From contig NC_134246.1 of assembly GCF_965152275.1 (NCBI RefSeq), positions 34,468,151-34,532,150 of the forward strand: a stretch of DNA of 64,000 bases, read 5' to 3'. Positions 35,501 to 56,803 of this stretch are shown piece by piece. This stretch comes from Natator depressus (lineage: Eukaryota). Under the pieces are notes generated by a model. The model ran no database searches and was not told the origin of the DNA. It saw nothing but the letters and a program-made list of their open reading frames with translations. Positions within the stretch are counted from its first letter, which is position 1. Each line of letters begins with the position of its first letter. The position numbers and the translations under genes are program-made.

Positions 35501-38500
35501 GGCCGCCGTGGGCAGCACCGATGGGACCCTGCACCTGCTGGACATACAGAGCGGCCAGGTACCGGGGGTGGGGGGCAGGGCAGATTCAGGGGATCTCTGG
35601 CCATGGGAAGACACTGTGGGGCTGCTTGGTTTGGAGGCAGGGGCAGAGGGAGCTGGGGGGGCAGGAAGGGAGGGGGGGCTAGGGAGCAGGAGGGGAAGCG
35701 GGGGGGGGGCAGGCTGAGAGGCAGGGGAGCTGGGGAAAGGCCAAGGGATAGGCTGGGGAGTTGGGGGGCAGGCTGGGGAGCTGGGGATAGGCTGGGGGCA
35801 GGAGAAGCCGGGGGGCAGGCAGGGGGCTCTGCAGGCTCACACCACCCCCTCTTGCTCCCAGGAGCTGAAGACCCTGCTGAGCGGCGGCACTGGGATCTCA
35901 GCCTGCGTCTTCCTGGCCGACAGGACCCTCTGCCTGGGCACCTTCGCCGGGGGGCTGGAGATCTGGGCCCTGCGTGAGGGCAGCAGGTACTATCAGGGTG
36001 TGGGGGGAAGGGCTGCCCCTCCAGGGGGCGCCGGCCATGATACAGCCCAGGGGATAGTGGGGGAGCTGGTTTGGGGGGTGATGGCGGGGACATCACATGA
36101 ATCTCTCTCCTTTCCAGGCTCCTGGCTACTGATGCTCACCGGGGCCGGGTCACGGGCTGTTGTGTCAGCCCTGATCGCAGACAGCTGGCCAGCGTCTCCC
36201 TGGATGGGCACCTGAAGGTACCAGCTACAGTCACCCCCCCGCCCTCCCTGTTCTAACCAATAGCCCCCACTCCCCTCCCCCAGCCGGGAGAGAATCCAGG
36301 CGCCCAGCTCTGGTTCTGACCCGCTGTCCTGTCTCTGCCAGCTGTGGGACTCTGCCCAGGGGCACCTGACCTGGGAGCTGGATCTCTCCTGCCCCTTGAA
36401 CTGTGCCGCCTTCCACCCCGATGGGCAGCTGGTGGCCACCGGGGGCTGGGATGGCGCCGTGACCATCCTGGGCCTGCAGAACCGGAGCGTGAGCTTGGTA
36501 TGGGGCACAGAGCGGTAGTGGCAGGGCTGGGAGCCCAGGGCTGGACTAGCAGGGGCGGCGGATTGGGAGTAAGGGGCACCACCAGGGCTGGGGGTGGTGA
36601 GGCTGGGCAAGGAGGGGCTGCGGGTTGGGAGTGAGGGGCACCGGCGGGTCTGGGGCCCCAGGGCTGGGCTGGCAGGGTCTGCGGGTCGGGAGTGAGGGGC
36701 ACCAGCTGGGCGGGCTGGGCTGTGACTCTGGCTCCCCCTGCAGGTTCTCTCAGGCCACGATGCTTCCATCCGCGCCGTGTCCTTCTCCCCTGCGGGCACC
36801 GTGCTGGCATCCGGCTGCCTGGCCGGGACGGTGCGTCTCTGGTCCTGGCGGGAGGCCGTGAGCCTGGCCACGTTCCCGGCACACCGGGGCTTCGTCTCCG
36901 AGGTCAAGTTCCTCTCCGGGGGTCAGGTCCTCCTCACGGCGGGCGAGGACACAAAGGTGCTGCGGGTTGGGAGTGAGAGGCACCAGCAGAGCTGGGCGGG
37001 GGCATGGGTCGGCTAGTAGGGGGCTGCGGATCGGCAGGGCTGAGCTAGCAGGGGGTCTGGGTCTGGAGTGAGGGGTGCTGGCAGAGCTGGGGGAGGGGTC
37101 AGGGGCTATGGGTTGGGAATGAGGGGCACCAGCAGGGTTGGGTGTGTGGGGGGGTGTAACGATGCTGGTTCTGGCGGGACTCAACTGAGAGAGGCAATTC
37201 AGGACAAATTGCTCAAAGCAGGGCAGTTACAGCCCAAGGCTGGGGTTTCTATCCACACCAAGGCAAACCAAAGCAGCCAAACAGAGAAGACTTTGGTTTT
37301 ACCCCCCTGGCTAACCACAAGTCACACAAGCAATTCCCTAGACACTCCAGTTTCCCAGTATCCCCACCAGTGCCCCTCGTTATGGGGACAGATGGTTATG
37401 AAAACCAGTACCGCAGGGAAAGAAAAAGGGTTCTCTTGATCACAAAGGACCCAGACCCAGGTCAATATACAAATCAGATCTTACCCACAAATCACGCTGC
37501 TGCTAATCCTTTAGAATCTAAAATCTAAAGGCTTATTCATAAAAGGAAAAGCTGTAGATGAGAGCTAAAATTGGTTAAATGGAAACAATTACATATAGTC
37601 ATGGCAAAGTGCCTGGCTCTGGCTTGCAGCAGTGATGGAATAAACTGCAGGTTCAAATCAAGTCTCTGGAGCACATCCACCGCTGGGAGGGGTCATTCAG
37701 TCCTTCGTTCAAAGCTTCAGTGTCGCAGAGTCCCTCCAGAGGTATGAAGCAGGACTGAAGAAGACCAGACGGAGGAGCTGCAGCAGCTTTTTGTAGTCTT
37801 TTGCCATGTGGTCTCTCTTTCTTTCTCCCAAAGACAAGCTGTCCCTCACATGGCCTGGAAACACCTCAGAGTTCTCTCCATAGGCAGATCCCCGCACACC
37901 TTGCTGAGTCCCCAGGCGTGTCTGCCTTCTCTCAATGGGTCACTTGTATCGCTGATGGTCCTTAATGGGCCATCAAGCAGGCTAGGCAGAGCTGACACCA
38001 ATTTCTCTGGGGTGTCACCCAGAAGCATAGCATAAGTTTGAACTACAGACAGTATAGAGCCAATACTTATAACTTTAAATACAAAAATGATACATGCATA
38101 TAGACAGCATAATCCTAACCAGCAAACCATAACCTTGTCTTAGACACCTTATTTGACCCCCTTTATACAAGATTTCGTGCCACTACAGGACCTTGGTTGC
38201 AACCATGTTCTGTATGGTCCCAGTTGAAGTCCATAACATGAGGAGGGGGCACAGCACTAACTGCTGATCTGTGGCCTAGGTCCAGCTCTGGCCGGGGCAC
38301 CTGGGCTGTGCCTGGGGCGCTCTGGGCTTGGGGCCGCTTTCTCCAGCCCTCTGCGTGGCCCCCAACCCCGCCGGCACCCTGCTCGCTGTGGGGCACCATT
38401 CAGATGATGTTTGGGTCTACGGCACCCCCTGGGGTAAGCGCCCAGACGCCTGGGCTCTGTCCCAGCTCGGGGGTGGGGTGGGGGGGATGAGGTCTAGTGG

Positions 38501-50300: not shown

Positions 50301-51799
50301 AGCTGGGATTCCTGGGCACACATTTTAGATGCTAAACTATTGGAAGGGGGAAGAGCCATAAAACCAGGGCTGGAGCAAACAGCTGGCAGAAAGAGGCCGA
50401 CAGAGCGTGGGCACTGTAGTTCGCCACCCCTCACCTGTGCTCTCTCCCCCGGCTCCGGGGTTGGGGCTGGCCCCACCATCCCGGGGTCTCTTTGGTGCTG
50501 AGGGCCGTTGTGGGGATGAGAAGCCAGGGACAGAGCTGGGCTCAGATGCCCCATCGTCATCCACAGCATCTGTGGAGAGAGGCCACAGGTCAGAGGGGGA
50601 GGGGAGGGTGCCACACCCCAGAGCTGGCCGCATCTCAGTGCCAGGCGAGCCACCCTGTGCATCGTCGCTATGACCCAGCTATGCCTAGCATCAGATTCTC
50701 CGGCCAGCTCCCTGGGGGATGATTAACGACTATCGAGCTTACGCTCTGATAGCGAGGCCTGCCCCACTCCGGGTACCTGAGACCTGCTCACCAACCGGAA
50801 CTGGGCCCTGGGAGCCTGAACCCCTTCCCCCAGCTTCCCACAGAGCCCGCTCTACCCACTAGGCCCCACTCACCTCCCAGAGCCAGGGAGAGAACCCAGG
50901 AGTCCTGGCTCCCTTCGTACCTGACTCCCTCCGTTCCATCCGGCGCTGGTGTCCGGTTCTGACGTTGGTCTGGGTCATCTGGGCCGTGTCCAATGTGTAG
51001 CGGGTCTGGCTGAACGTCACCTCTAGGCTGGGCCCCCCGTTGCCGCGCCGCGCACCCTCCAGCGCCAGGCAGGTGTCGGCAGGGTAGGGCAGCCACTGCC
51101 CCTCTTTGTCCCCCTGCCAGCACCACACGAAATCTGGGCCGCGGGCATCCTGTTAGCTCCCTGCTGGCGCTAACCCCTAGGGGGCCCTGCAGCTCCCAGC
51201 CTCTGGGGCAGTGACTGTGACGGGGCATTGGACCCAGGTGTCTAGGTGGCTGTGCAGGGTGTTCACCCCTGGGGGCCCCACAGCTCCCAGCGTCTGGGGC
51301 AGTGACCATGACTGGGCATGGGACCCAGGTGTCCGGGCAGCAGAGCAGGGTGTTCACCCCTAGGGGGCCCCATAACTCGGGGGAGTGATCAGGACAGGGC
51401 ATGGGACCCAGGCGTCCGGGACAACACTGCTCCCCCCACCAGGGCTCCCTGGGCACTCACAGGAGTCCTGGTCCTGGATGGCTGCTGCCACGCATCTGTC
51501 CTGCCCCATCTGTCCGTTCTGCTGCACCATCCGCCGCAGGTCCACACAGGAGCCCACAGTCACGCTGGGCTTCCCTGCCCTGGGGGGAGATGGAAGCGGC
51601 TCAGGGCCTGTGACTCCCCCACCACAGCCCAGGTCACGACATGCCCCCGCCAGGGCACTCACCTGGCCGCTTGTGTCAGTACCTCGCTCTGCTCAGGCAC
51701 GAAGCAATGCCAGGTGCCGCCAGGGTCCTGCCACTCCCAGCGCAGCTCCAGTGCCAGGCCCACGTCTCCTGCCTCGGCTACCCTCCGCTTCCGGCTCAT
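44173..51799 (-). CDS. PARP2: PARP2 (poly(ADP-ribose) polymerase 2): coding region of about 18 exons (span includes introns), with an N-terminal extension encoding two WWE domains
   Basis: Minus-strand exons, approximate coordinates (±2): A 51663-51799, B 51461-51579, C 50921-51133, D 50435-50569, E 49422-49492, F 49134-49184, G 48899-48998, H 48668-48743, I 48497-48593, J 47997-48150, K 47552-47690, L 46530-46593, M 46312-46446, N 45964-46088, O 45553-45652, P 45305-45403, Q 44958-45083, R 44173-44337. Human PARP2 matches: [16 protein letters not shown] (E), [17 protein letters not shown] (F), [32 protein letters not shown] (G, WGR domain), [26 protein letters not shown] (H), [28 protein letters not shown] (I), [20 protein letters not shown] (J), [23 protein letters not shown]…[17 protein letters not shown] (K), [21 protein letters not shown] (L), [25 protein letters not shown] (M), [18 protein letters not shown] (N), [33 protein letters not shown] (O), [21 protein letters not shown] (P), [10 protein letters not shown] (Q), [33 protein letters not shown] (R). 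Confidence 0.88.
46790..47170 (+). mobile_element. Partial internal copy of the MITE-like family, in PARP2 intron L/M
   Basis: …ggcatgttccccatccgggtcctaggcctaggggcagccagggggctctgcatgctgcc…caatgggagctgtggggg…gaacatgccactgc… It is followed by a 3x tandem of cacccctgagccaggccgcctg at 47095-47165. Confidence 0.45.
48235..48545. repeat. Three to four degenerate tandem copies of the 3' end of PARP2 exon I plus its splice donor
   Basis: On the minus strand: ctgcacatggacagccaacccccc|gtgagtgtgacccc (the real junction, 48480-48545), then ctgcacatggacagctgacccccagtgtgacccc and ctgcacatagacagccggccccctgtgagtgtgacccc (decayed copies). Confidence 0.6.
49640..50170 (+). mobile_element. Degenerate CR1-type LINE reverse-transcriptase fragment, in a PARP2 intron
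   Basis: The frameshifted plus-strand translation gives [21 protein letters not shown] … QAGFTENK … [11 protein letters not shown]. These match the CR1 RT motifs YRPVSLTSIPGKIMEQLIRDS, QHGFMENRS and [13 protein letters not shown]. Confidence 0.6.
50435..50569 (-). CDS. PARP2: PARP2 coding exon D: acidic and basic low-complexity linker with a KRPR nuclear-localisation-like motif
   Basis: Acceptor ctctctccacag|at and donor cacag|gtgagg. Encodes (D)[44 protein letters not shown]. It is phase-compatible both with exon C upstream and with the conserved PARP2 exon E ([17 protein letters not shown]) downstream. Confidence 0.6.
50921..51133 (-). CDS. PARP2: PARP2 coding exon C: complete WWE domain 2
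   Basis: Acceptor ggcccag|at. Encodes (Y)[70 protein letters not shown] with donor tcag|gtacga. This is a textbook WWE: W-x-W-(7)-W-x-Y … LE … Y-x-LD-x-x-x-M-x-Q-x-N-x-x-TG-x-x-R. Confidence 0.6.
51461..51579 (-). CDS. PARP2: PARP2 coding exon B: second half of WWE domain 1
   Basis: Acceptor ttccatctccccccag|g after a ~90-nt intron. Encodes (R)[39 protein letters not shown] with donor ctcct|gtgagtg. It carries the WWE C-terminal signature Y/C-x-[IV]-D-x-x-x-M-x-Q-x-N-x-x-TG-x-x-R. Confidence 0.55.
51663..51799 (-). CDS. PARP2: PARP2 coding exon A: start codon and first half of WWE domain 1
   Basis: Kozak-like ccaggATGa. Encodes [45 protein letters not shown] with a consensus donor cag|gtgagt that gives phase 2. 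The basic MSRKRR start resembles the mammalian PARP2 start MAARRRRS. Confidence 0.6.
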
Positions 51800-51879
51800 C
51801 CTGGGAGTGACGAGGGGGCTGGCGAGCAGAGAGAAAGGAGGCAGGGATCCACAGACTGTGATCCCCAAGCCATATAGCC

Positions 51880-52470
51880 CCATATGAACCATTCTACTGC
51901 AATCCATACAGCCCTGTATGGACCAGCACCGCTCCAGGCCATATAGCCCTATACAGACCATCCTACCGAAATCCATACAGCCTGTATGGACCAGCACACA
52001 CACATCCCAGGTCATATAGCCCCATACAGACCATTCTACTGCCATCCATACAGCCATGTGTGGACCACCCCCCCTTCCAGGCCATATAGCCCTGTACAGA
52101 CCATCCTATCGAAATCCATATAGCCCTGTATGTACCATCACAACCCCCGCCCCCAGGTCCTAGAGCCCCAGATGGGCCATTGTACTGCAATCCACAGAGT
52201 CTCTTATCCACCCCTCCGGCAATATAACCCTATATTGACCAGGCTACGGCAATCCATACAGCTTTGTGTGGATCAGCAGCCCCCCCCCCCCCATTTAGCC
52301 CTATACAGACCAGCCTATGGAGATCCACGCAGCCCTGTATATACCAGCAAAACCCAGCCCTGTATGAATGAGCATGTCCCCTCCCGTCCCCCGGCCAATC
52401 ACACAGCCCTATATGGACCATCCCACCATAATCTACGGAGCCATCCATGAACCAGTTCCCTCCCCTGCTG
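51880..52470. repeat. Satellite-like tandem array (~66-bp unit ×~9) in which each unit holds the palindrome CCATACAG-CC-CTGTATGG, starting ~80 bp upstream of the PARP2 ATG
   Basis: Unit ≈ ccaggccatatagccctatacagaccatcctaccgaaatccatacagccctgtatggaccagcacc. Dispersed related units are at 53320-53580, 53900-54200 and 54400-54450. Confidence 0.7.
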
Positions 52471-53106
52471 CAACTCTGCAATAGCTCCGGACCCCACTGA
52501 GTCCCCCACCCCCAGTGCAATATCCTAACCCTCCGTGCAATCTGCCCAGGACCCTTACTCCCTGCGCCCAGAACACCCCACCCCCCGACTCCCAGAGCAC
52601 CCCCTCCCCCACTGCATGCCCCCAGGCCGCCACTGCAACCCCAGCCCTGTTGCACCCCCTAGGGTCGCCCTGCATTCCCCCTCAACCCTCCCCCACTGCA
52701 ACCCCAGCTCCATAGCACTCCCTAAGGTCCCTCTGCACCCCTCCCTCACTGCAAACCCACCCCCTTGCACCGCAACCTCTCCCTCACCCTTCCCCCAATG
52801 CTCACCCGCCCCATTGCATCCCCTTAGGGTTCCCCTCCCCCCACCTGGCGGCGCGGCGGCGGCGGCGGCCCTCACCAGCCTGGGCGCTCCAGGGAACGTT
52901 CCAGTAACCGAACTCTCGCGCAGCCCACCCTCATTTGCATATCGCTCATTTGCATTAGCCCCGTCCCCTGCCCTGGGCGGTCGCTGGCGTAGAGGGGCCC
53001 GAGCCCCGCCCCCTAAGCAGTCGGGCGGGTTGGCGCGCAAAGCATTATGGAGACACACACCTAGCTCACCCGCTCGGCGACACTCAACGGCGGGCGGAGC
53101 CGGTTC

Positions 53107-53291
53107 ATTTGCATAGCGGGGGTGGTGCATGCTGGGAGTTCGCGCTCTCCTTTATACCCCCCCTTTAGACCCTTCTTCTGTGCAGAAGTGGAAGGGGTGC
53201 GATTTGCATACGCCATGGCTCATGCCGAAAGTTGCTCCACTCGCTCACCGTCACCTTTTAAGACAGAATATCAGGGAGCGTTATATAGCCC
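53107..53291 (+). promoter_or_regulatory. Pol III type-3 (snRNA/H1-like) promoter module: octamers ATTTGCAT (53107-53114 and 53204-53211), PSE-like TCACCGTCACCTTTTAAGAC (53248-53267), TATA TTATATAG (53284-53291)
   Basis: The octamer to PSE to TATA spacing (PSE start to TATA ~38 bp) is nearly identical to the compact human H1/RPPH1 promoter, where octamer to PSE TCACCATAAACGTGAAATG to TATAAG is 39 bp. Two more octamers lie at 52965-52972 and 52979-52986. The module is on the strand opposite to PARP2, as for mammalian RPPH1. Confidence 0.45.
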
Positions 53292-54946
53292 CTAACCCTA
53301 CCAGGGCTGCCTCTCAGAAGGTGACCAATTCATACTCCCGTCTCCAAGGCCATCCAGAGCTATATAGGCCCTGCAACCTCTCAACAGCCAGTGGTTCAGT
53401 GTGATGGGCCTGAGGGGGTCCACAACCCCACTCAGCCTGCTTCCTCTCAAGTAGACAACGCTGTATGGATCCTGAACCCTCTGTACAGCCACCCTGTATG
53501 TGCCTTGCACCCTCCTTGCTGCCTGCCATAGGTCATATAAACCTGTATGGGCCCTGCAGTCTCCCCACAAACTCATGCAAACCAGCTGTCAGATGGGATA
53601 AACCCCCCCGCCATTCCCCCAGAGCCATGGGGAAGATAAAGTCACTGACAGTTGTGACGGGCTCAGATACTATTGTGAGATCCGGGTCTGTGAATACGGC
53701 CCAGAGCTGCCCACCGACTGAGGAGGCCAACCCAAGATATTGACCTGCTGCTTATTCCATGCAACCGAAAAAGGCAGGGTCTGGGTGCTGGACATCACGC
53801 AACCCTGTTCTTAGGGCTGTAGGGTGATACAGCCCGCATTGAGCCGCTGGCTATGTTTTCAGCAATTGACCTTGTGACCTTCACTTGTTCCCCCTTTGGA
53901 TGCAACAGATAATTACATCAGGGCAATACAGCTTTGTCGGTTGGGATTGCTCTACCCCAGGCCATATATTCCAGTACAGACCAGGAGGTAATTGTATACG
54001 GACCCTTCCCCCAACCCCTTATATGGTTTCACAACCCAATTCAGAGCATTCTCCTCCAAACCCTTTTACATCTGACCTCCTTCCACCCAGGCCTTATTAT
54101 CCCATATTGACCAGCACCCCTTTGTGGGCTCTTACAGAATAAAGCCATCTCACCCACTACAGACACATGCCAGGCCATATATCCCAATCCAATCTGGTCC
54201 ATGCGATCAGGCATAGCTTTTTAATGAGGAGAGTAATTAACCACGGGAACAATGTCCCAGGAACCGGGTGGATTCGCCATCGCTGACACTTTCTAAATCT
54301 TGCTCAGATGTTTCCCCAAAAGACCGGCTCCAGGAATTGTTTGGGACTGTTCTCTGGCCTGTGAGATACTAGGTCAGTCAAGAAGATCACAATGGTCCCT
54401 TATGGCCTTGGAATCTATGAAGCCCCCTGCCTGGGCCGATATAGTCCCATATGGACCACAGGGACTCGTAGCCCAGTTCAGATCACTGGAACCCTCCCCA
54501 AGATCCTGTATAGATGGCCCCAGTCTGGTTATTATAACTCATCCAGACCAGGACTCGGGCAGTTTCGCTAATCCAGCCTATTTCAGGCTGGCCCATAAAG
54601 CCACTACAGACCAGCCCCCCCCCCCCGCCCCCTGTCCCAACTATGGGCCCTTCTGCTCCTCCCCCCATGCAGATTATCTTCTTCCTCTCCCCCCAGATTT
54701 TCAGCTTGCCTCCTCTCACCTGGGAGCTCCGGACCAGGGGAGAGCATTACGCTCACAGTGCATGCTGGGACCATGTGTCCTGCCCCTCCTCCCCACCCAT
54801 GAGCTCTGAGGCTGGGCGTGACCCAGGTGTGGGTAGGACACCACATACCATTGGGGAGGGTGGCTTCCCAGTGGGATGAAGGCCCCTGGGGCCAAGCTCC
54901 CGGCCCCTGAGGAAACAGGGATTGTCTCACAAAACGGTACAAATGC

Positions 54947-54952
54947 TTTATT
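54947..54952 (-). promoter_or_regulatory. AATAAA polyadenylation signal (minus strand), probably for the zinc-finger gene
   Basis: Plus-strand tttatt in caaatgctttatttcaaaacag lies ~480 nt 3' of the ZNF stop codon. Confidence 0.4.
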
Positions 54953-55429
54953 TCAAAACAGAAGCATCTGCCCATCTGAACCCAGCCCCAGCTTCCCCTC
55001 CTCCCCACATGCAGCCTGCAGCCCGCAGCCCATCCTCATCCTCGTGCCGGCGGTAGCTGGGCCCTGAACTCCAGAGCCGGGAGCTGGCAAAGATCCCAGC
55101 GGCCAGCACCTATCTGGTGGTGGAGCTAGCGCCTGGCTCCCAGCACAGTCTGGCTGTAACGGCACCCAGCGATGGAGGGGGCAGTTCCCCGGCTAATTGC
55201 TCTCGAGGTGCAAACACGGCCCCTGAGCTCCCGGCCAACTTCGTCTCACTGCTGCTACTGCAGCTGGGCCTCGTGGCTGGGCAAAGGGGCCGTGCCGAGC
55301 ACTCTCCCTGCCAGGCTGGTGCCAGCCTTCTGCCTGCCCCGCCTCACTGAGGGCCTTTTGGGGGCGCTGCGCCCGGCACGGGCTGAGGAGAGCACAGCGT
55401 CCAAGCATAGCGCTAGGGCCAGGACAGGG

Positions 55430-56803
55430 CTATGTAGTCCCCGTGGCAGAGGACACAGGGCTAGGGCTCTCTGTCTCCAAGGACCCCCAGCGGGCAGCAT
55501 CCCCGGTGGCCGGTGGGCAGCGCCCCTTGGCCCGGGCATGGGTGCGCTGGTGCACCACCATGTTGGAGCGGCGGTGGAAGCGTCGGCCGCACTGTGGGCA
55601 GGCGAAGGGGCGCTCGGCCGTATGGGTGCGCTGGTGACGGATAAGATTGGAGCTGCGGTGGAAGCGTCGGCCGCATTCGGCGCAGGCATAGGGCTGCTCG
55701 CCGGTGTGGGTGCGCCGGTGCACAGTGAGGGCCGAGCTCTGGGCAAAGGCCTTGGGGCAGTCAGGGCAGCGGTAGGGGCGCTCACCGGTGTGGCTGCGCC
55801 GGTGGGTGGCCAGGTGGGAGCTCTGGGCGAAGGCCTTGGGGCAGTCGGGACAGCGGTAGGGCCGCTCGCCAGTGTGTGTGCGGCTGTGCACCACCAGGTC
55901 AGAGCGCTGGGCGAAGCTGCGCCCGCAGTCTCCACAGCGGTAGGGTGATTCCTCCAGGTGGGCCCGCTGGTGGCGCCGGTGCACCGTGCTGTGGGCGAAG
56001 GCCAGGCCGCAGATGCCACAGCGGTAAGGCCGCTCCCCGGTGTGGGAGCGCCAGTGGCGCAGCAGCTCCGAGCTGCCAGGGAAGCCCTTCCCACACTGGG
56101 CGCAGCGGTAAGGCCGATCGGGCTGGTGCGTGCGCCGGTGCTGCGCCAGGTTGGAGCCGGTGCTGAAGCCCTTGCCGCAGTCGGCGCAGCGGTAGGGCCG
56201 CTCCCCGGTGTGGGTGCGGCCATGCACAGCCAGGTCGGCGCGCCGGGCGAAGGCCTTGGGGCAGGAGGGACAGGGGAAGGGGCGCTCACCGGTGTGGGCC
56301 CGCCGGTGCACTGCCAGGTTGGAGCGTTTGCCAAAGCGCCGGCCACACTCGGGGCAGGGGTGGGGGCGCTCGCCCGTGTGTACCCGCCGGTGCTTGGCCA
56401 GGCCCGAGCTCTGGGCGAAGGCCCGGCCACAGTCCTCGCAGGCGTAGGGGCGCTCGCCCGAGTGCGAGCGCCGATGCACAATCAGCGTGGAGCTTTGCGA
56501 GAAGGCCTTGCCGCACACGCTGCACCCGTACCGCCGGGGGCGCACCGGGACAGCCTGTCCCCTGGCCCTCGTCTGCTCCCCCTCCCCCATGGCCTGGCTC
56601 CCATGGTCCCCCTTCCTTCGGCTGCCCAGATCTGAGAGCGTCCCCGTGTCTCCATGTGCCTCTTCCCGCCACACATCCGGCCCTACGTCTCCACTAGCCT
56701 GGTGCCCGCCGTCCCCCTCCTGCTGGGGAGCACTGGCTCCACCCCGCCGCGGGGACGCGAGCCCAGCTGGGGTCAACATCACAGGAGGGGTCCCCTGGGC
56801 CAT
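55430..56803 (-). CDS. C2H2 zinc-finger protein: 13 tandem fingers on a single 457-codon exon
   Basis: Minus-strand ORF MAQGTPPVMLTPAGLASPRRG… followed by 13 repeats of the type Y-x-C-x2-C-x-K/R-x-F-x5-L-x2-H-x-R-x-H-TGE-R/K-P (for example YGCSVCGKAFSQSSTLIVHRRSHSGERPYACEDCGRAFAQSSGLAKHRRVHTGERPHPC…). No KRAB or SCAN domain lies in this exon. The acceptor-like tttctcctcccgcag sits 22 nt upstream of the ATG in an open frame, so upstream coding exons are possible. Confidence 0.8.
   Translation of the reverse strand: MAQGTPPVMLTPAGLASPRRGGASAPQQEGDGGHQASGDVGPDVWREEAHGDTGTLSDLGSRRKGDHGSQAMGEGEQTRARGQAVPVRPRRYGCSVCGKAFSQSSTLIVHRRSHSGERPYACEDCGRAFAQSSGLAKHRRVHTGERPHPCPECGRRFGKRSNLAVHRRAHTGERPFPCPSCPKAFARRADLAVHGRTHTGERPYRCADCGKGFSTGSNLAQHRRTHQPDRPYRCAQCGKGFPGSSELLRHWRSHTGERPYRCGICGLAFAHSTVHRRHQRAHLEESPYRCGDCGRSFAQRSDLVVHSRTHTGERPYRCPDCPKAFAQSSHLATHRRSHTGERPYRCPDCPKAFAQSSALTVHRRTHTGEQPYACAECGRRFHRSSNLIRHQRTHTAERPFACPQCGRRFHRRSNMVVHQRTHARAKGRCPPATGDAARWGSLETESPSPVSSATGTT

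What the first reader, a model, noticed from the sequence alone, without database searches (positions are those of the whole stretch)
50435..51799. PARP2 appears to carry an N-terminal extension encoding two tandem WWE (poly-ADP-ribose-binding) domains
Four minus-strand exons lie upstream of the first exon that aligns to mammalian PARP2 ([17 protein letters not shown]). They are A 51663-51799, B 51461-51579, C 50921-51133 and D 50435-50569. Every junction has gt…ag, strong polypyrimidine acceptors and matching codon phases (A 2-phase, B 1-phase, C 1-phase, D 1-phase into exon E). Spliced together they encode [218 protein letters not shown]… Both blocks fit the WWE signature: W-x-W … W-x-(Y/C) … LE … (Y/C)-x-(L/V)-D-x-x-x-M-x-Q-x-N-x-x-TG-x-x-R. 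WWE domains occur in PARP11/12/13/14, TIPARP, RNF146 and DTX E3 ligases. They are not known in mammalian PARP1/2/3, whose PARP2 N-terminal region is a short disordered basic segment. A DNA-damage-activated PARP fused to PAR/iso-ADP-ribose readers would be a new domain architecture with clear mechanistic implications, namely self-recruitment to PAR chains. The alternative is an unannotated separate WWE gene whose exons only look spliceable to PARP2.
Basis: partly seen in the sequence, partly recalled or inferred. Interest (0 to 1): 0.85.

Follow-up and report, generated by a model that had tools for sequence, protein, structure and literature searches.

The report
Turtle PARP2 keeps ancestral WWE domains
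The four exons are real and do put two WWE (poly-ADP-ribose-reader type) domains on the front of this sea turtle's PARP2, but this is the ordinary, already annotated form of PARP2 in most animals, which placental mammals have lost.

Summary
Exons A-D (51663-51799, 51461-51579, 50921-51133, 50435-50569, minus strand) are GT-AG bounded and in phase. They splice into the first PARP2-body exon and encode two WWE domains (Pfam PF02825, E=1.8e-24) plus a disordered linker. With 14 further exons they give an intact 698-aa protein: WWE-WWE-WGR-PARP_reg-PARP.

The interpretation "new domain architecture" is wrong. The 698-aa product is 100% identical to deposited PARP2 proteins of the flatback turtle Natator depressus. 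The same four-domain architecture is annotated as PARP2 in turtles, crocodilians, squamates, tuatara, marsupials, platypus, amphibians, lungfish, sturgeon, sharks, oyster, snail and a nematode. Intron-free RNA-derived contigs from a lizard and from oyster carry the whole fusion. Perina et al. 2014 (DNA Repair 23:4) already note WWE domains at the N-terminus of non-mammalian PARP2. Human PARP2 has no room for them, so the loss is in placental mammals.

WWE2 keeps all four iso-ADP-ribose-binding positions of RNF146. WWE1 lacks the Tyr144 equivalent in every orthologue examined. PAR binding is therefore plausible for WWE2 but untested. I found no functional study.

Verdict: real feature, already known, low interest.

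The parts
52876..52955 (-). Upstream exon 0 of PARP2 (5' UTR or alternative N-terminal extension). The 5' end is not determined; it lies in a CpG-rich block at about 52800-53200.
   Evidence: The donor ggctg|gtgagg follows 52876. Translated, the exon gives MQMSDMQMRVGCARVRLLERSLERPG, the start of RefSeq Natator isoform X2 (P0319), and matches the Chrysemys and Terrapene model N-termini. CpG o/e is about 0.8.
51663..51818 (-). Exon A. The conserved start codon is at 51799-51797 and the CDS is 51663-51799. It encodes MSRKRR... and the first half of WWE1 (W21, W23, W30).
   Evidence: The acceptor at 51819-51820 is inferred from P0319. Pfam WWE.
51461..51579 (-). Exon B: second half of WWE1 ([10 protein letters not shown]...R74).
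50921..51133 (-). Exon C: the whole of WWE2 (aa 86-156). It is a phase 1-1 symmetric exon and keeps W91, Y131, Q140 and R149.
   Evidence: (54.5 bits alone).
50435..50569 (-). Exon D: acidic, then Pro/Ser-rich, disordered linker containing PKRPR (aa 182-186), which resembles a nuclear localisation signal.
   Evidence: AlphaFold pLDDT is below 50 for residues 163-246 of the Chelydra orthologue. The NLS reading is inference.
49422..49492 (-). Exon E: the first exon alignable to human PARP2 ([24 protein letters not shown]).
49134..49184 (-). Exon F (start of WGR).
48899..48995 (-). Exon G (WGR).
48668..48743 (-). Exon H (WGR).
48497..48593 (-). Exon I (end of WGR).
47997..48150 (-). Exon J (start of the regulatory helical domain).
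47552..47690 (-). Exon K (PARP_reg).
46530..46593 (-). Exon L (PARP_reg).
46312..46446 (-). Exon M (PARP_reg).
45974..46098 (-). Exon N (catalytic domain).
45552..45651 (-). Exon O (catalytic domain, His543).
45306..45404 (-). Exon P (catalytic domain, Tyr577).
44958..45082 (-). Exon Q (catalytic domain).
44173..44332 (-). Exon R coding part (catalytic Glu673, stop TAA at 44173-44175). An AATAAA signal follows at 44119-44124.

Best explanation
Exons A-D are the genuine 5' coding exons of the PARP2 gene of a cheloniid sea turtle; the product is identical to Natator depressus PARP2. The gene has 18 coding exons on the minus strand (44173-51799) and ends tail to tail with TEP1. It encodes a 698-aa enzyme with a tandem WWE module (aa ~17-156), a disordered linker of about 50 aa with an NLS-like PKRPR, the DNA-break-sensing WGR domain, the regulatory helical domain and an H-Y-E catalytic domain. 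This architecture is ancestral for animal PARP2 and was lost on the lineage to placental mammals, which keep only a short basic N-terminal region. Those points are shown. The mechanism is inferred, at about 55% likelihood. WWE2 retains every residue that RNF146 needs to bind iso-ADP-ribose, so it probably docks PARP2 onto PAR chains already made (mostly by PARP1) at a lesion, while WGR engages the 5'-phosphorylated break. That would make recruitment and/or activation PAR-primed, the same logic reported for the PAR-binding N-terminus of human PARP2. WWE1 lacks the Tyr144-equivalent in all orthologues examined. It more likely acts as a structural partner or a reader of something else, as the first WWE of ZAP/PARP13 does.
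For: - Gene structure: all 18 exons are GT-AG and in phase, giving a 698-aa ORF. Pfam finds WWE x2, WGR, PARP_reg and PARP, all far above their cut-offs.
- Identity to deposited proteins: 698/698 to Natator CAM5096123.1, 681/681 to RefSeq X2 and 636/636 to X6. There is also gapless end-to-end alignment to the 698-aa PARP2 proteins (six RefSeq, one UniRef) of 7 other turtle species.
- Breadth: the four Pfam domains co-occur in PARP2 of crocodilians, squamates, tuatara, marsupials, amphibians, lungfish, sturgeon and sharks, and in platypus, oyster, snail and a nematode.
- mRNA-level proof: Logan contig SRR6291288_45851 is 2530 bp with one uninterrupted 715-aa ORF containing all four domains; it is closest to Pogona. 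Many oyster contigs of 2.3-3.5 kb encode the 741-744 aa fusion.
- No AATAAA or ATTAAA occurs on the minus strand between exons A and E.
- Constraint: W89, W99, Y131, M138, Q140 and N142 are invariant across 31 vertebrates. Natator and Caretta differ at 5 of 156 WWE residues and at 15 of 542 elsewhere.
- Fold: pLDDT is about 90 or more for residues 15-160. Foldseek gives HUWE1 WWE at TM 0.84 and rmsd 1.6 A, and the top hits are the tandem WWEs of DTX1, Deltex and ZAP.
- Ligand residues: RNF146 Y107/Y144/Q153/R163 correspond to W91/Y131/Q140/R149 in WWE2.
- Placental loss: full-length human PARP2 (6x0l_P) aligns only from query residue 145 to chain residue 29.
- Literature: PMC4245714, PMC6089979, PMC9023293.
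- Synteny: TEP1 propeller hits lie on the + strand just downstream.
Against: - I could not inspect RNA-seq from this species. RefSeq XP_ models are predictions.
- RefSeq also lists isoforms that start at Met63 (636 aa, no intact WWE1) or Met138 (561 aa, no WWE). The Chelonia mydas X3 model skips exon C. The proportion of WWE-bearing protein is therefore unknown.
- PAR binding is not shown for any PARP2 WWE.
- One live-cell study found that, of several WWE domains with conserved binding residues, only RNF146's was recruited to damage (bioRxiv 10.1101/2023.12.29.573650).
- The predicted tandem superposes poorly as a unit on DTX1 and ZAP (rmsd 9-14 A).
Confidence: 0.9

Rival explanations
1. Exons A-C(D) form an independent, unannotated WWE gene that only looks spliceable to PARP2.
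For: Older or partial annotations name fragments 'uncharacterized protein LOC...' in Terrapene and Chrysemys.
Against: Those 'uncharacterized' Chrysemys models themselves contain PARP2 exons. P0003 reads exon J out of frame, and P0217 carries all four domains. There is no polyA signal between exons A and E. Intron-free contigs carry the fusion in a lizard and in oyster. The collinear architecture is conserved from molluscs to marsupials.
Confidence: 0.02
2. The WWE exons are included only in minor isoforms. The main turtle PARP2 protein would start downstream (Met63 or Met138) and be functionally like the placental enzyme.
For: RefSeq predicts isoforms of 636 aa (start MVQQNG...) and 561 aa (start MTQTNV...) in Natator, Chelonia, Lepidochelys, Eretmochelys and Dermochelys. 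The C. mydas X3 model skips exon C. Exon C is phase 1-1, so skipping it keeps the frame.
Against: Residue-level conservation of both WWE domains across about 450 Myr of vertebrates is not expected for rarely translated sequence. The full-length fusion is what is assembled from RNA in the lizard and in oyster. The truncated starts lie inside WWE folds, which is typical of Gnomon 'first in-frame Met' models built on 5'-variant transcripts.
Confidence: 0.07
3. The WWE module is real and expressed but does not read PAR. It would serve as a protein-protein or autoinhibitory module, or bind another adenine nucleotide.
For: WWE1 lacks the Tyr144 equivalent in every orthologue aligned. WWE domains of TRIP12 and DTX2 with conserved binding residues were not recruited to damage as isolated probes. 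PDB entries show WWE domains bound to ATP, ADP or ADPr as well (entry titles).
Against: WWE2 keeps all four positions essential in RNF146, and three of them are invariant across 31 vertebrates. Full-length DTX2 does need its tandem WWE for PARP-dependent recruitment (PMC11345397).
Confidence: 0.3

Closest known systems
PARP2 of non-placental animals (RefSeq/UniProt 'poly [ADP-ribose] polymerase 2', e.g. Natator depressus XP_074826595.1 and CAM5096123.1, Xenopus laevis parp2.S, Monodelphis, Ornithorhynchus XP_028933514.1, Crassostrea gigas XP_011443308)
   Same: It is this protein. Identity to Natator is 100%. The domain order WWE-WWE-WGR-PARP_reg-PARP is the same, and in turtles so is the exon structure.
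   Different: Nothing of substance. Only the annotated 5' ends vary, with optional N-terminal extensions read from repeat or UTR sequence.
Human/placental PARP2 (PDB 6x0l, 6usj)
   Same: WGR, regulatory and catalytic domains align over residues 202-698 with high conservation. The H-Y-E triad and the TEP1 neighbour are shared. The placental protein is also reported to be PAR-responsive through its N-terminus.
   Different: The placental protein has only a short basic disordered stretch before WGR and no WWE domain. RPPH1, which sits head to head with PARP2 in mammals (my recollection: Ame et al. 2001), was not detected in this window.
Tandem-WWE readers: DTX1/DTX2/DTX4 (8r5n, 2a90) and ZAP/PARP13, PARP12 (7kzh, 7sz2)
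   Same: Two consecutive WWE folds. These are the best sequence and fold matches. In DTX2 the tandem drives PARP-dependent recruitment to breaks. In ZAP one WWE binds ADPr and the other does not (my recollection of the ZAP structural papers; only the PDB titles were seen here). That parallels WWE2 versus WWE1 in this protein.
   Different: The partner domains differ: RING-DTC E3 ligase, or CCCH fingers plus an inactive or mono-ART domain, against a DNA-activated poly-ART here. The predicted inter-domain geometry does not superpose (rmsd 9-14 A).
Single WWE domains of RNF146, HUWE1 and TRIP12
   Same: WWE2 has the same fold (TM 0.73-0.84) and the same four ligand-contact positions.
   Different: Those proteins are ubiquitin ligases that read PAR in order to degrade targets.

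Membership tests
WWE domain (Pfam PF02825) | Significant match to the family HMM above the curated cut-off, for each repeat | tested here: met
   Whole N-terminus 86.3 bits (cut-off 21.1). WWE1 alone 37.5 bits, WWE2 alone 54.5 bits.
WWE domain (Pfam PF02825) | WWE fold (half beta-barrel plus helix) | tested here: met
   The AlphaFold model of the 89%-identical Chelydra orthologue has pLDDT of about 90 or more over residues 15-160. Foldseek matches HUWE1 6miw (TM 0.84, rmsd 1.6 A), TRIP12 (0.82) and RNF146 (0.73).
PAR/iso-ADPr-binding WWE subclass (RNF146 type) | Four essential ligand residues equivalent to RNF146 Tyr107, Tyr144, Gln153 and Arg163 | tested here: met
   WWE2 has W91, Y131, Q140 and R149. 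HUWE1, TRIP12 and DTX1 also have Trp at the first position. Y131 and Q140 are invariant, and W91 and R149 are conserved at 90% or more, across 31 vertebrates.
PAR/iso-ADPr-binding WWE subclass (RNF146 type) | The same four residues in WWE1 | tested here: not met
   WWE1 keeps W23, Q65 and R74 but has no aromatic residue at the Tyr144 position. Sauropsids have a gap or small residue there; other vertebrates and oyster have Leu or Ile.
PAR/iso-ADPr-binding WWE subclass (RNF146 type) | Measured binding to iso-ADPr or PAR | not testable with these tools
   This needs ITC, SPR or pull-down with recombinant protein. No published measurement was found in the held library.
PARP2 orthologue (clade 1 DNA-dependent PARP) | WGR + regulatory helical domain + catalytic domain with the H-Y-E triad | tested here: met
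   Pfam WGR 89 bits, PARP_reg 138 bits, PARP 238 bits. The triad is H543, Y577 and E673. The best PDB hit is human PARP2 at E=1.9e-241, against PARP1 at 6e-117.
PARP2 orthologue (clade 1 DNA-dependent PARP) | Orthology by best hits and conserved neighbourhood | tested here: met
   Of the 120 best database hits, those that carry a source name are nearly all named PARP2, and the rest still carry the PARP2 Pfam domain set. TEP1 beta-propeller exons converge on the 3' end, as in human 14q11 (the human arrangement is from my own knowledge).
Tandem-WWE module (Deltex / ZAP type) | Two WWE folds packed into one rigid unit with a defined interface | tested here: inconclusive
   These are the top Foldseek hits (E 1.7e-8 to 4e-6), but rmsd is 9-14 A over about 155-165 columns. 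Either the relative orientation differs or the model does not fix it.

The most novel reading that the evidence does not exclude
The WWE2 domain is a working iso-ADP-ribose reader that makes ancestral PARP2 a PAR-primed, second-wave polymerase, recruited and/or switched on by PARP1-made chains. Placental mammals would have replaced this folded reader with a basic disordered PAR/DNA-binding tail. WWE1, which has lacked the key tyrosine since before the bilaterian split, would have a separate, unknown role. The architecture itself is not new; only its function and the reason for its loss are open.
Probability: 0.5. Interest if true: 0.45.

Novelty: already known. Interest (0 to 1): 0.18.

Why it matters
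As a discovery it does not matter. The gene model is in RefSeq and ENA for this species, the domain combination is precomputed in public protein databases for more than a hundred species, and a 2014 survey mentions it.

Its residual value is as a reminder. Almost all PARP2 biochemistry comes from human and mouse, which are the exception. The ancestral enzyme carries a conserved reader module whose ligand and role have, as far as I could find, never been tested.

Xenopus egg extract, zebrafish or marsupial cells would be ready systems for that test. The question is whether PAR-dependent recruitment and branching by PARP2 originally ran through a WWE domain.

Tried and rejected
I used the 89%-identical Chelydra protein P0001 instead.
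- The first word-indexed search, with the 225-aa N-terminus, returned only four turtle fragments and briefly suggested a turtle-specific or mis-annotated feature. The full-length query corrected that.
Rfam found nothing in the whole window at gathering threshold and nothing in 52800-55000 at E<=1.
- Wang et al. 2012 (PMC3278890), the primary source for the RNF146 ligand residues, is not held. I took the four residues from a preprint that cites it. I then fixed the numbering on the 3V3L chain sequence; all four residue types fall on the stated numbers.
- I found no RNA-derived contig from a turtle. The only Logan contig among the top 120 hits is from an agamid-like lizard.
- Citarelli et al. 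2010 say WWE occurs in clades 2 and 3 only, so the literature record rests on one sentence in Perina et al. 2014.
- I considered and rejected the in-frame upstream ORF (MAVWMAVEW..., 51800-52057) as real coding sequence. It lies in a 142-bp tandem repeat and has no counterpart outside sea turtles.
Full report

Yes, exactly as described. On the minus strand the four segments are A 51663-51799, B 51461-51579, C 50921-51133 and D 50435-50569. Each sits between a pyrimidine-rich AG acceptor and a GT donor.

Exon D ends in phase 1. Its last G, plus the first two bases of the next exon (E, 49422-49492), makes the Glu codon of [18 protein letters not shown].

Pfam's WWE model (PF02825) hits the peptide at 86.3 bits, E=1.8e-24, in two stretches. 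Tested alone, each block passes the 21.1-bit cut-off: 37.5 bits for WWE1 and 54.5 bits for WWE2. This is not a chance ORF.

**2. What is the whole gene?**

I followed the reading frame downstream and defined 14 more exons, E to R, all GT-AG and all in phase.

- The product is 698 aa with a stop at 44173-44175 and an AATAAA signal at 44119-44124.
- Pfam finds WWE x2 (aa 21-76 and 87-153), WGR (236-316), PARP_reg (348-478) and the PARP catalytic domain (492-692, 238 bits).
- The catalytic triad is present: H543, Y577, E673.
- WWE1 is split between exons A and B.
- WWE2 is exactly exon C, a phase 1-1 exon.
- Exon D is a linker carrying PKRPR.
- The best solved relative of the body is human PARP2 (E=1.9e-241, against 6e-117 for PARP1).
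- TEP1 propeller exons converge on the 3' end from the + strand. From my own knowledge, this is the human 14q11 arrangement.

**3. Are the WWE exons really part of PARP2 transcripts?**

Five independent lines say so.

(a) Identity to deposited proteins.
- The 698-aa model is 698/698 identical to a deposited Natator depressus protein. That protein is CAM5096123.1, 784 aa, the same sequence with an 86-aa N-terminal extension.
- It also matches RefSeq PARP2 isoforms X2 (681/681) and X6 (636/636) of that species. The window is therefore flatback-turtle DNA.
- The model aligns end to end without a gap to the 698-aa PARP2 proteins of Dermochelys, Eretmochelys, Emys, Malaclemys, Gopherus and Mauremys (RefSeq) and of Chelonoidis (UniRef).

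(b) Domain co-occurrence across vertebrates. A full-length search returned proteins annotated as PARP2 that carry PF02825, PF05406, PF02877 and PF00644 together. They come from turtles, crocodilians, squamates, tuatara, marsupials, caecilians, frogs (including Xenopus laevis parp2.S), salamanders, lungfish, sturgeon, sharks and rays.

(c) Wider reach.
- An exhaustive HMMER pass over 1.8 billion cluster representatives found single proteins matching the query continuously from WWE1 through WGR. They are from platypus, frogs, an electric ray, coelacanth, oyster, a snail and a nematode.
- My own Pfam scan confirmed all four domains in six of the ten proteins scanned: platypus (two entries), ray, oyster, snail, nematode (one WWE) and an unnamed RNA-derived protein.

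(d) mRNA-level evidence.
- Logan contig SRR6291288_45851 is 2530 bp and carries one uninterrupted 715-aa ORF with WWE, WGR, PARP_reg and PARP. Its closest relative is Pogona PARP2 at 85%.
- The oyster cluster contains many 2.3-3.5 kb contigs encoding the 741-744 aa fusion.
- Contigs this short cannot contain introns, so they come from spliced RNA.

(e) No termination signal. There is no AATAAA or ATTAAA on the minus strand between exon A and exon E.

The fragments named "uncharacterized protein" in Chrysemys and Terrapene first looked like support for a separate gene. They are partial or frame-shifted models of the same locus. P0003 runs from the WWE exons into exon J read out of frame. P0217, from the same LOC number, has all four domains.

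**4. Is it new?**

No. Perina et al. [quoted passage not shown] That paper is internally inconsistent about birds, since it also says PARP2 is undetectable in bird genomes. The earlier survey by Citarelli et al. 2010 places WWE only in clades 2 and 3. The printed record is therefore thin, but it exists, and the database record is massive.

Marsupials and platypus have the WWE pair. Full-length human PARP2 (6x0l_P) aligns only from query residue 145 to chain residue 29, which leaves no room for about 140 residues of WWE. The loss is on the placental lineage.

**5. How does it probably work?**

Shown:
- Both domains are under constraint. In an alignment of 31 vertebrate orthologues, W21, W30, D59, W89, W99, Y131, M138, Q140 and N142 are invariant. 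W23, M63, Q65, W91, R149 and R153 are at least 90% conserved.
- Natator and Caretta differ at 5 of 156 WWE positions and at 15 of 542 elsewhere.
- An AlphaFold model of the Chelydra orthologue predicts residues 15-160 at pLDDT of about 90 or more as two WWE folds. The linker, residues 163-246, is disordered.
- Foldseek's best hits are the tandem WWEs of DTX1, Drosophila Deltex and ZAP/PARP13. Single-domain matches are to HUWE1 (TM 0.84, rmsd 1.6 A), TRIP12 and RNF146.
- The tandem as a unit superposes poorly (rmsd 9-14 A), so the inter-domain geometry is unsettled.

Ligand residues:
[quoted passage not shown] 2012). I fixed their positions on the 3V3L sequence.
- In a MAFFT alignment they correspond to W91, Y131, Q140 and R149 of WWE2. 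The pattern is the same in every PARP2 orthologue aligned and in the PAR-binding HUWE1, TRIP12 and DTX1 domains.
- WWE1 keeps W23, Q65 and R74 but never has an aromatic residue at the Tyr144 position. Sauropsids have a short deletion there; other vertebrates and oyster have Leu or Ile.

Inferred:
- WWE2 is a competent PAR reader.
- WWE1 is a degenerate partner.
- The module tethers PARP2 to PAR made at a lesion, while WGR binds the break.

The logic is not new for PARP2. The N-terminus of human PARP2 is reported to bind PAR and to stimulate branched-chain synthesis (PMC6089979). PARP2 foci are mainly PARP1- and PAR-dependent (PMC9023293). DTX2 needs its tandem WWE for PARP-dependent recruitment (PMC11345397).

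Against over-confidence: isolated TRIP12 and DTX2 WWE probes were not recruited in live cells despite conserved residues, and no PARP2 WWE has been assayed. I put the PAR-reader mechanism at roughly 55%.

**6. Caveats.**

- I could not see turtle RNA-seq.
- RefSeq lists alternative isoforms that start at Met63 (636 aa) or Met138 (561 aa). The Chelonia mydas X3 model skips exon C. Some PARP2 protein may therefore lack one or both WWE domains.
- Several annotated N-terminal extensions are read from a 142-bp tandem repeat (51863-52278) or from an upstream exon around 52876-52955. I treat the ATG at 51799 as the conserved start. It gives the N-terminus of the 698-aa RefSeq PARP2 proteins of other turtles, and a basic (K/R)-rich N-terminus is shared by the other vertebrate sequences.

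**7. Verdict.**

The gene model is correct. The architecture is ancestral and already annotated and published, and only its function is unstudied. Novelty: already known. Interest: low (0.18).

The open question worth a bench experiment is whether WWE2 binds iso-ADP-ribose and why placentals dispensed with it.

Noticed in passing
window 52940-53290 (both strands): A CpG-rich block upstream of PARP2 holds four exact ATGCAAAT octamers (about 53210, 53113, 52955 and 52940, read on the minus strand). On the + strand there is a PSE-like CTCACCGTCACCTTTTAAGA followed about 20 nt later by TTATATAG. Together these look like a type-3 Pol III (snRNA/H1-type) promoter pointing away from PARP2, where mammals have RPPH1. 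Yet Rfam finds no RNase P RNA or any other family downstream or anywhere in the window.
   Followed up: partly
window 51863-52278: A tandem repeat with a 142-bp period (2.9 copies) sits immediately 5' of the start codon. It is open in frame with exon A. Some deposited sea-turtle PARP2 proteins read it as an 86-aa N-terminal extension (MAVWMAVEW...): CAM5096123.1, and the X3 models of C. mydas and L. kempii. This is probably an annotation artefact.
   Followed up: partly
window 47753-47960 and about 48280-48500: Intronic tandem duplications copy exon ends. A 114-bp unit repeats the acceptor plus the first codons of exon K (cag|GGAAGCTGAC...), and one upstream copy stays open in frame into exon K. 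Degenerate copies of the exon I 3' end plus its donor (CTGCACATGGACAGC...GTGAGTGTGACC) follow exon I. These are potential cryptic splice sites.
   Followed up: no
window 50921-51133 (exon C) and the isoforms: WWE2 is one symmetric phase 1-1 exon, and a RefSeq Chelonia mydas isoform (X3) skips it in frame. Other predicted isoforms begin at Met63 or Met138. If real, they would give PARP2 without one or both WWE domains.
   Followed up: partly
window about 36396-43308, + strand: WD40 exons here match the Pfam TEP-1 second and C-terminal beta-propellers, so the 3' end of TEP1 converges on the PARP2 3' end (conserved synteny).
   Followed up: yes
window 55430-56803, minus strand: A single 457-aa ORF encodes about 11 C2H2 zinc fingers with HTGERPY linkers (zf-C2H2 248 bits). 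It lies upstream of PARP2 on the same strand, and its 84-bp periodicity shows up in TRF.
   Followed up: partly
query residues 145-201 against human PARP2 chain 29-85: The basic N-terminal region of human PARP2 aligns weakly with the last strand of turtle WWE2 plus the exon D linker. Both proteins begin with M-x-(R/K)-rich sequence (the human start is from my recollection). This hints that placentals lost the WWE core by internal deletion rather than by acquiring a new first exon.
   Followed up: no
PMC4245714, sections 3.1.1 and 4: The one paper that reports WWE domains in PARP2 cites 'bird' among its examples, yet states elsewhere that PARP2 is undetectable in all sequenced birds. No bird protein appeared among the 120 best hits here.
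   Followed up: no
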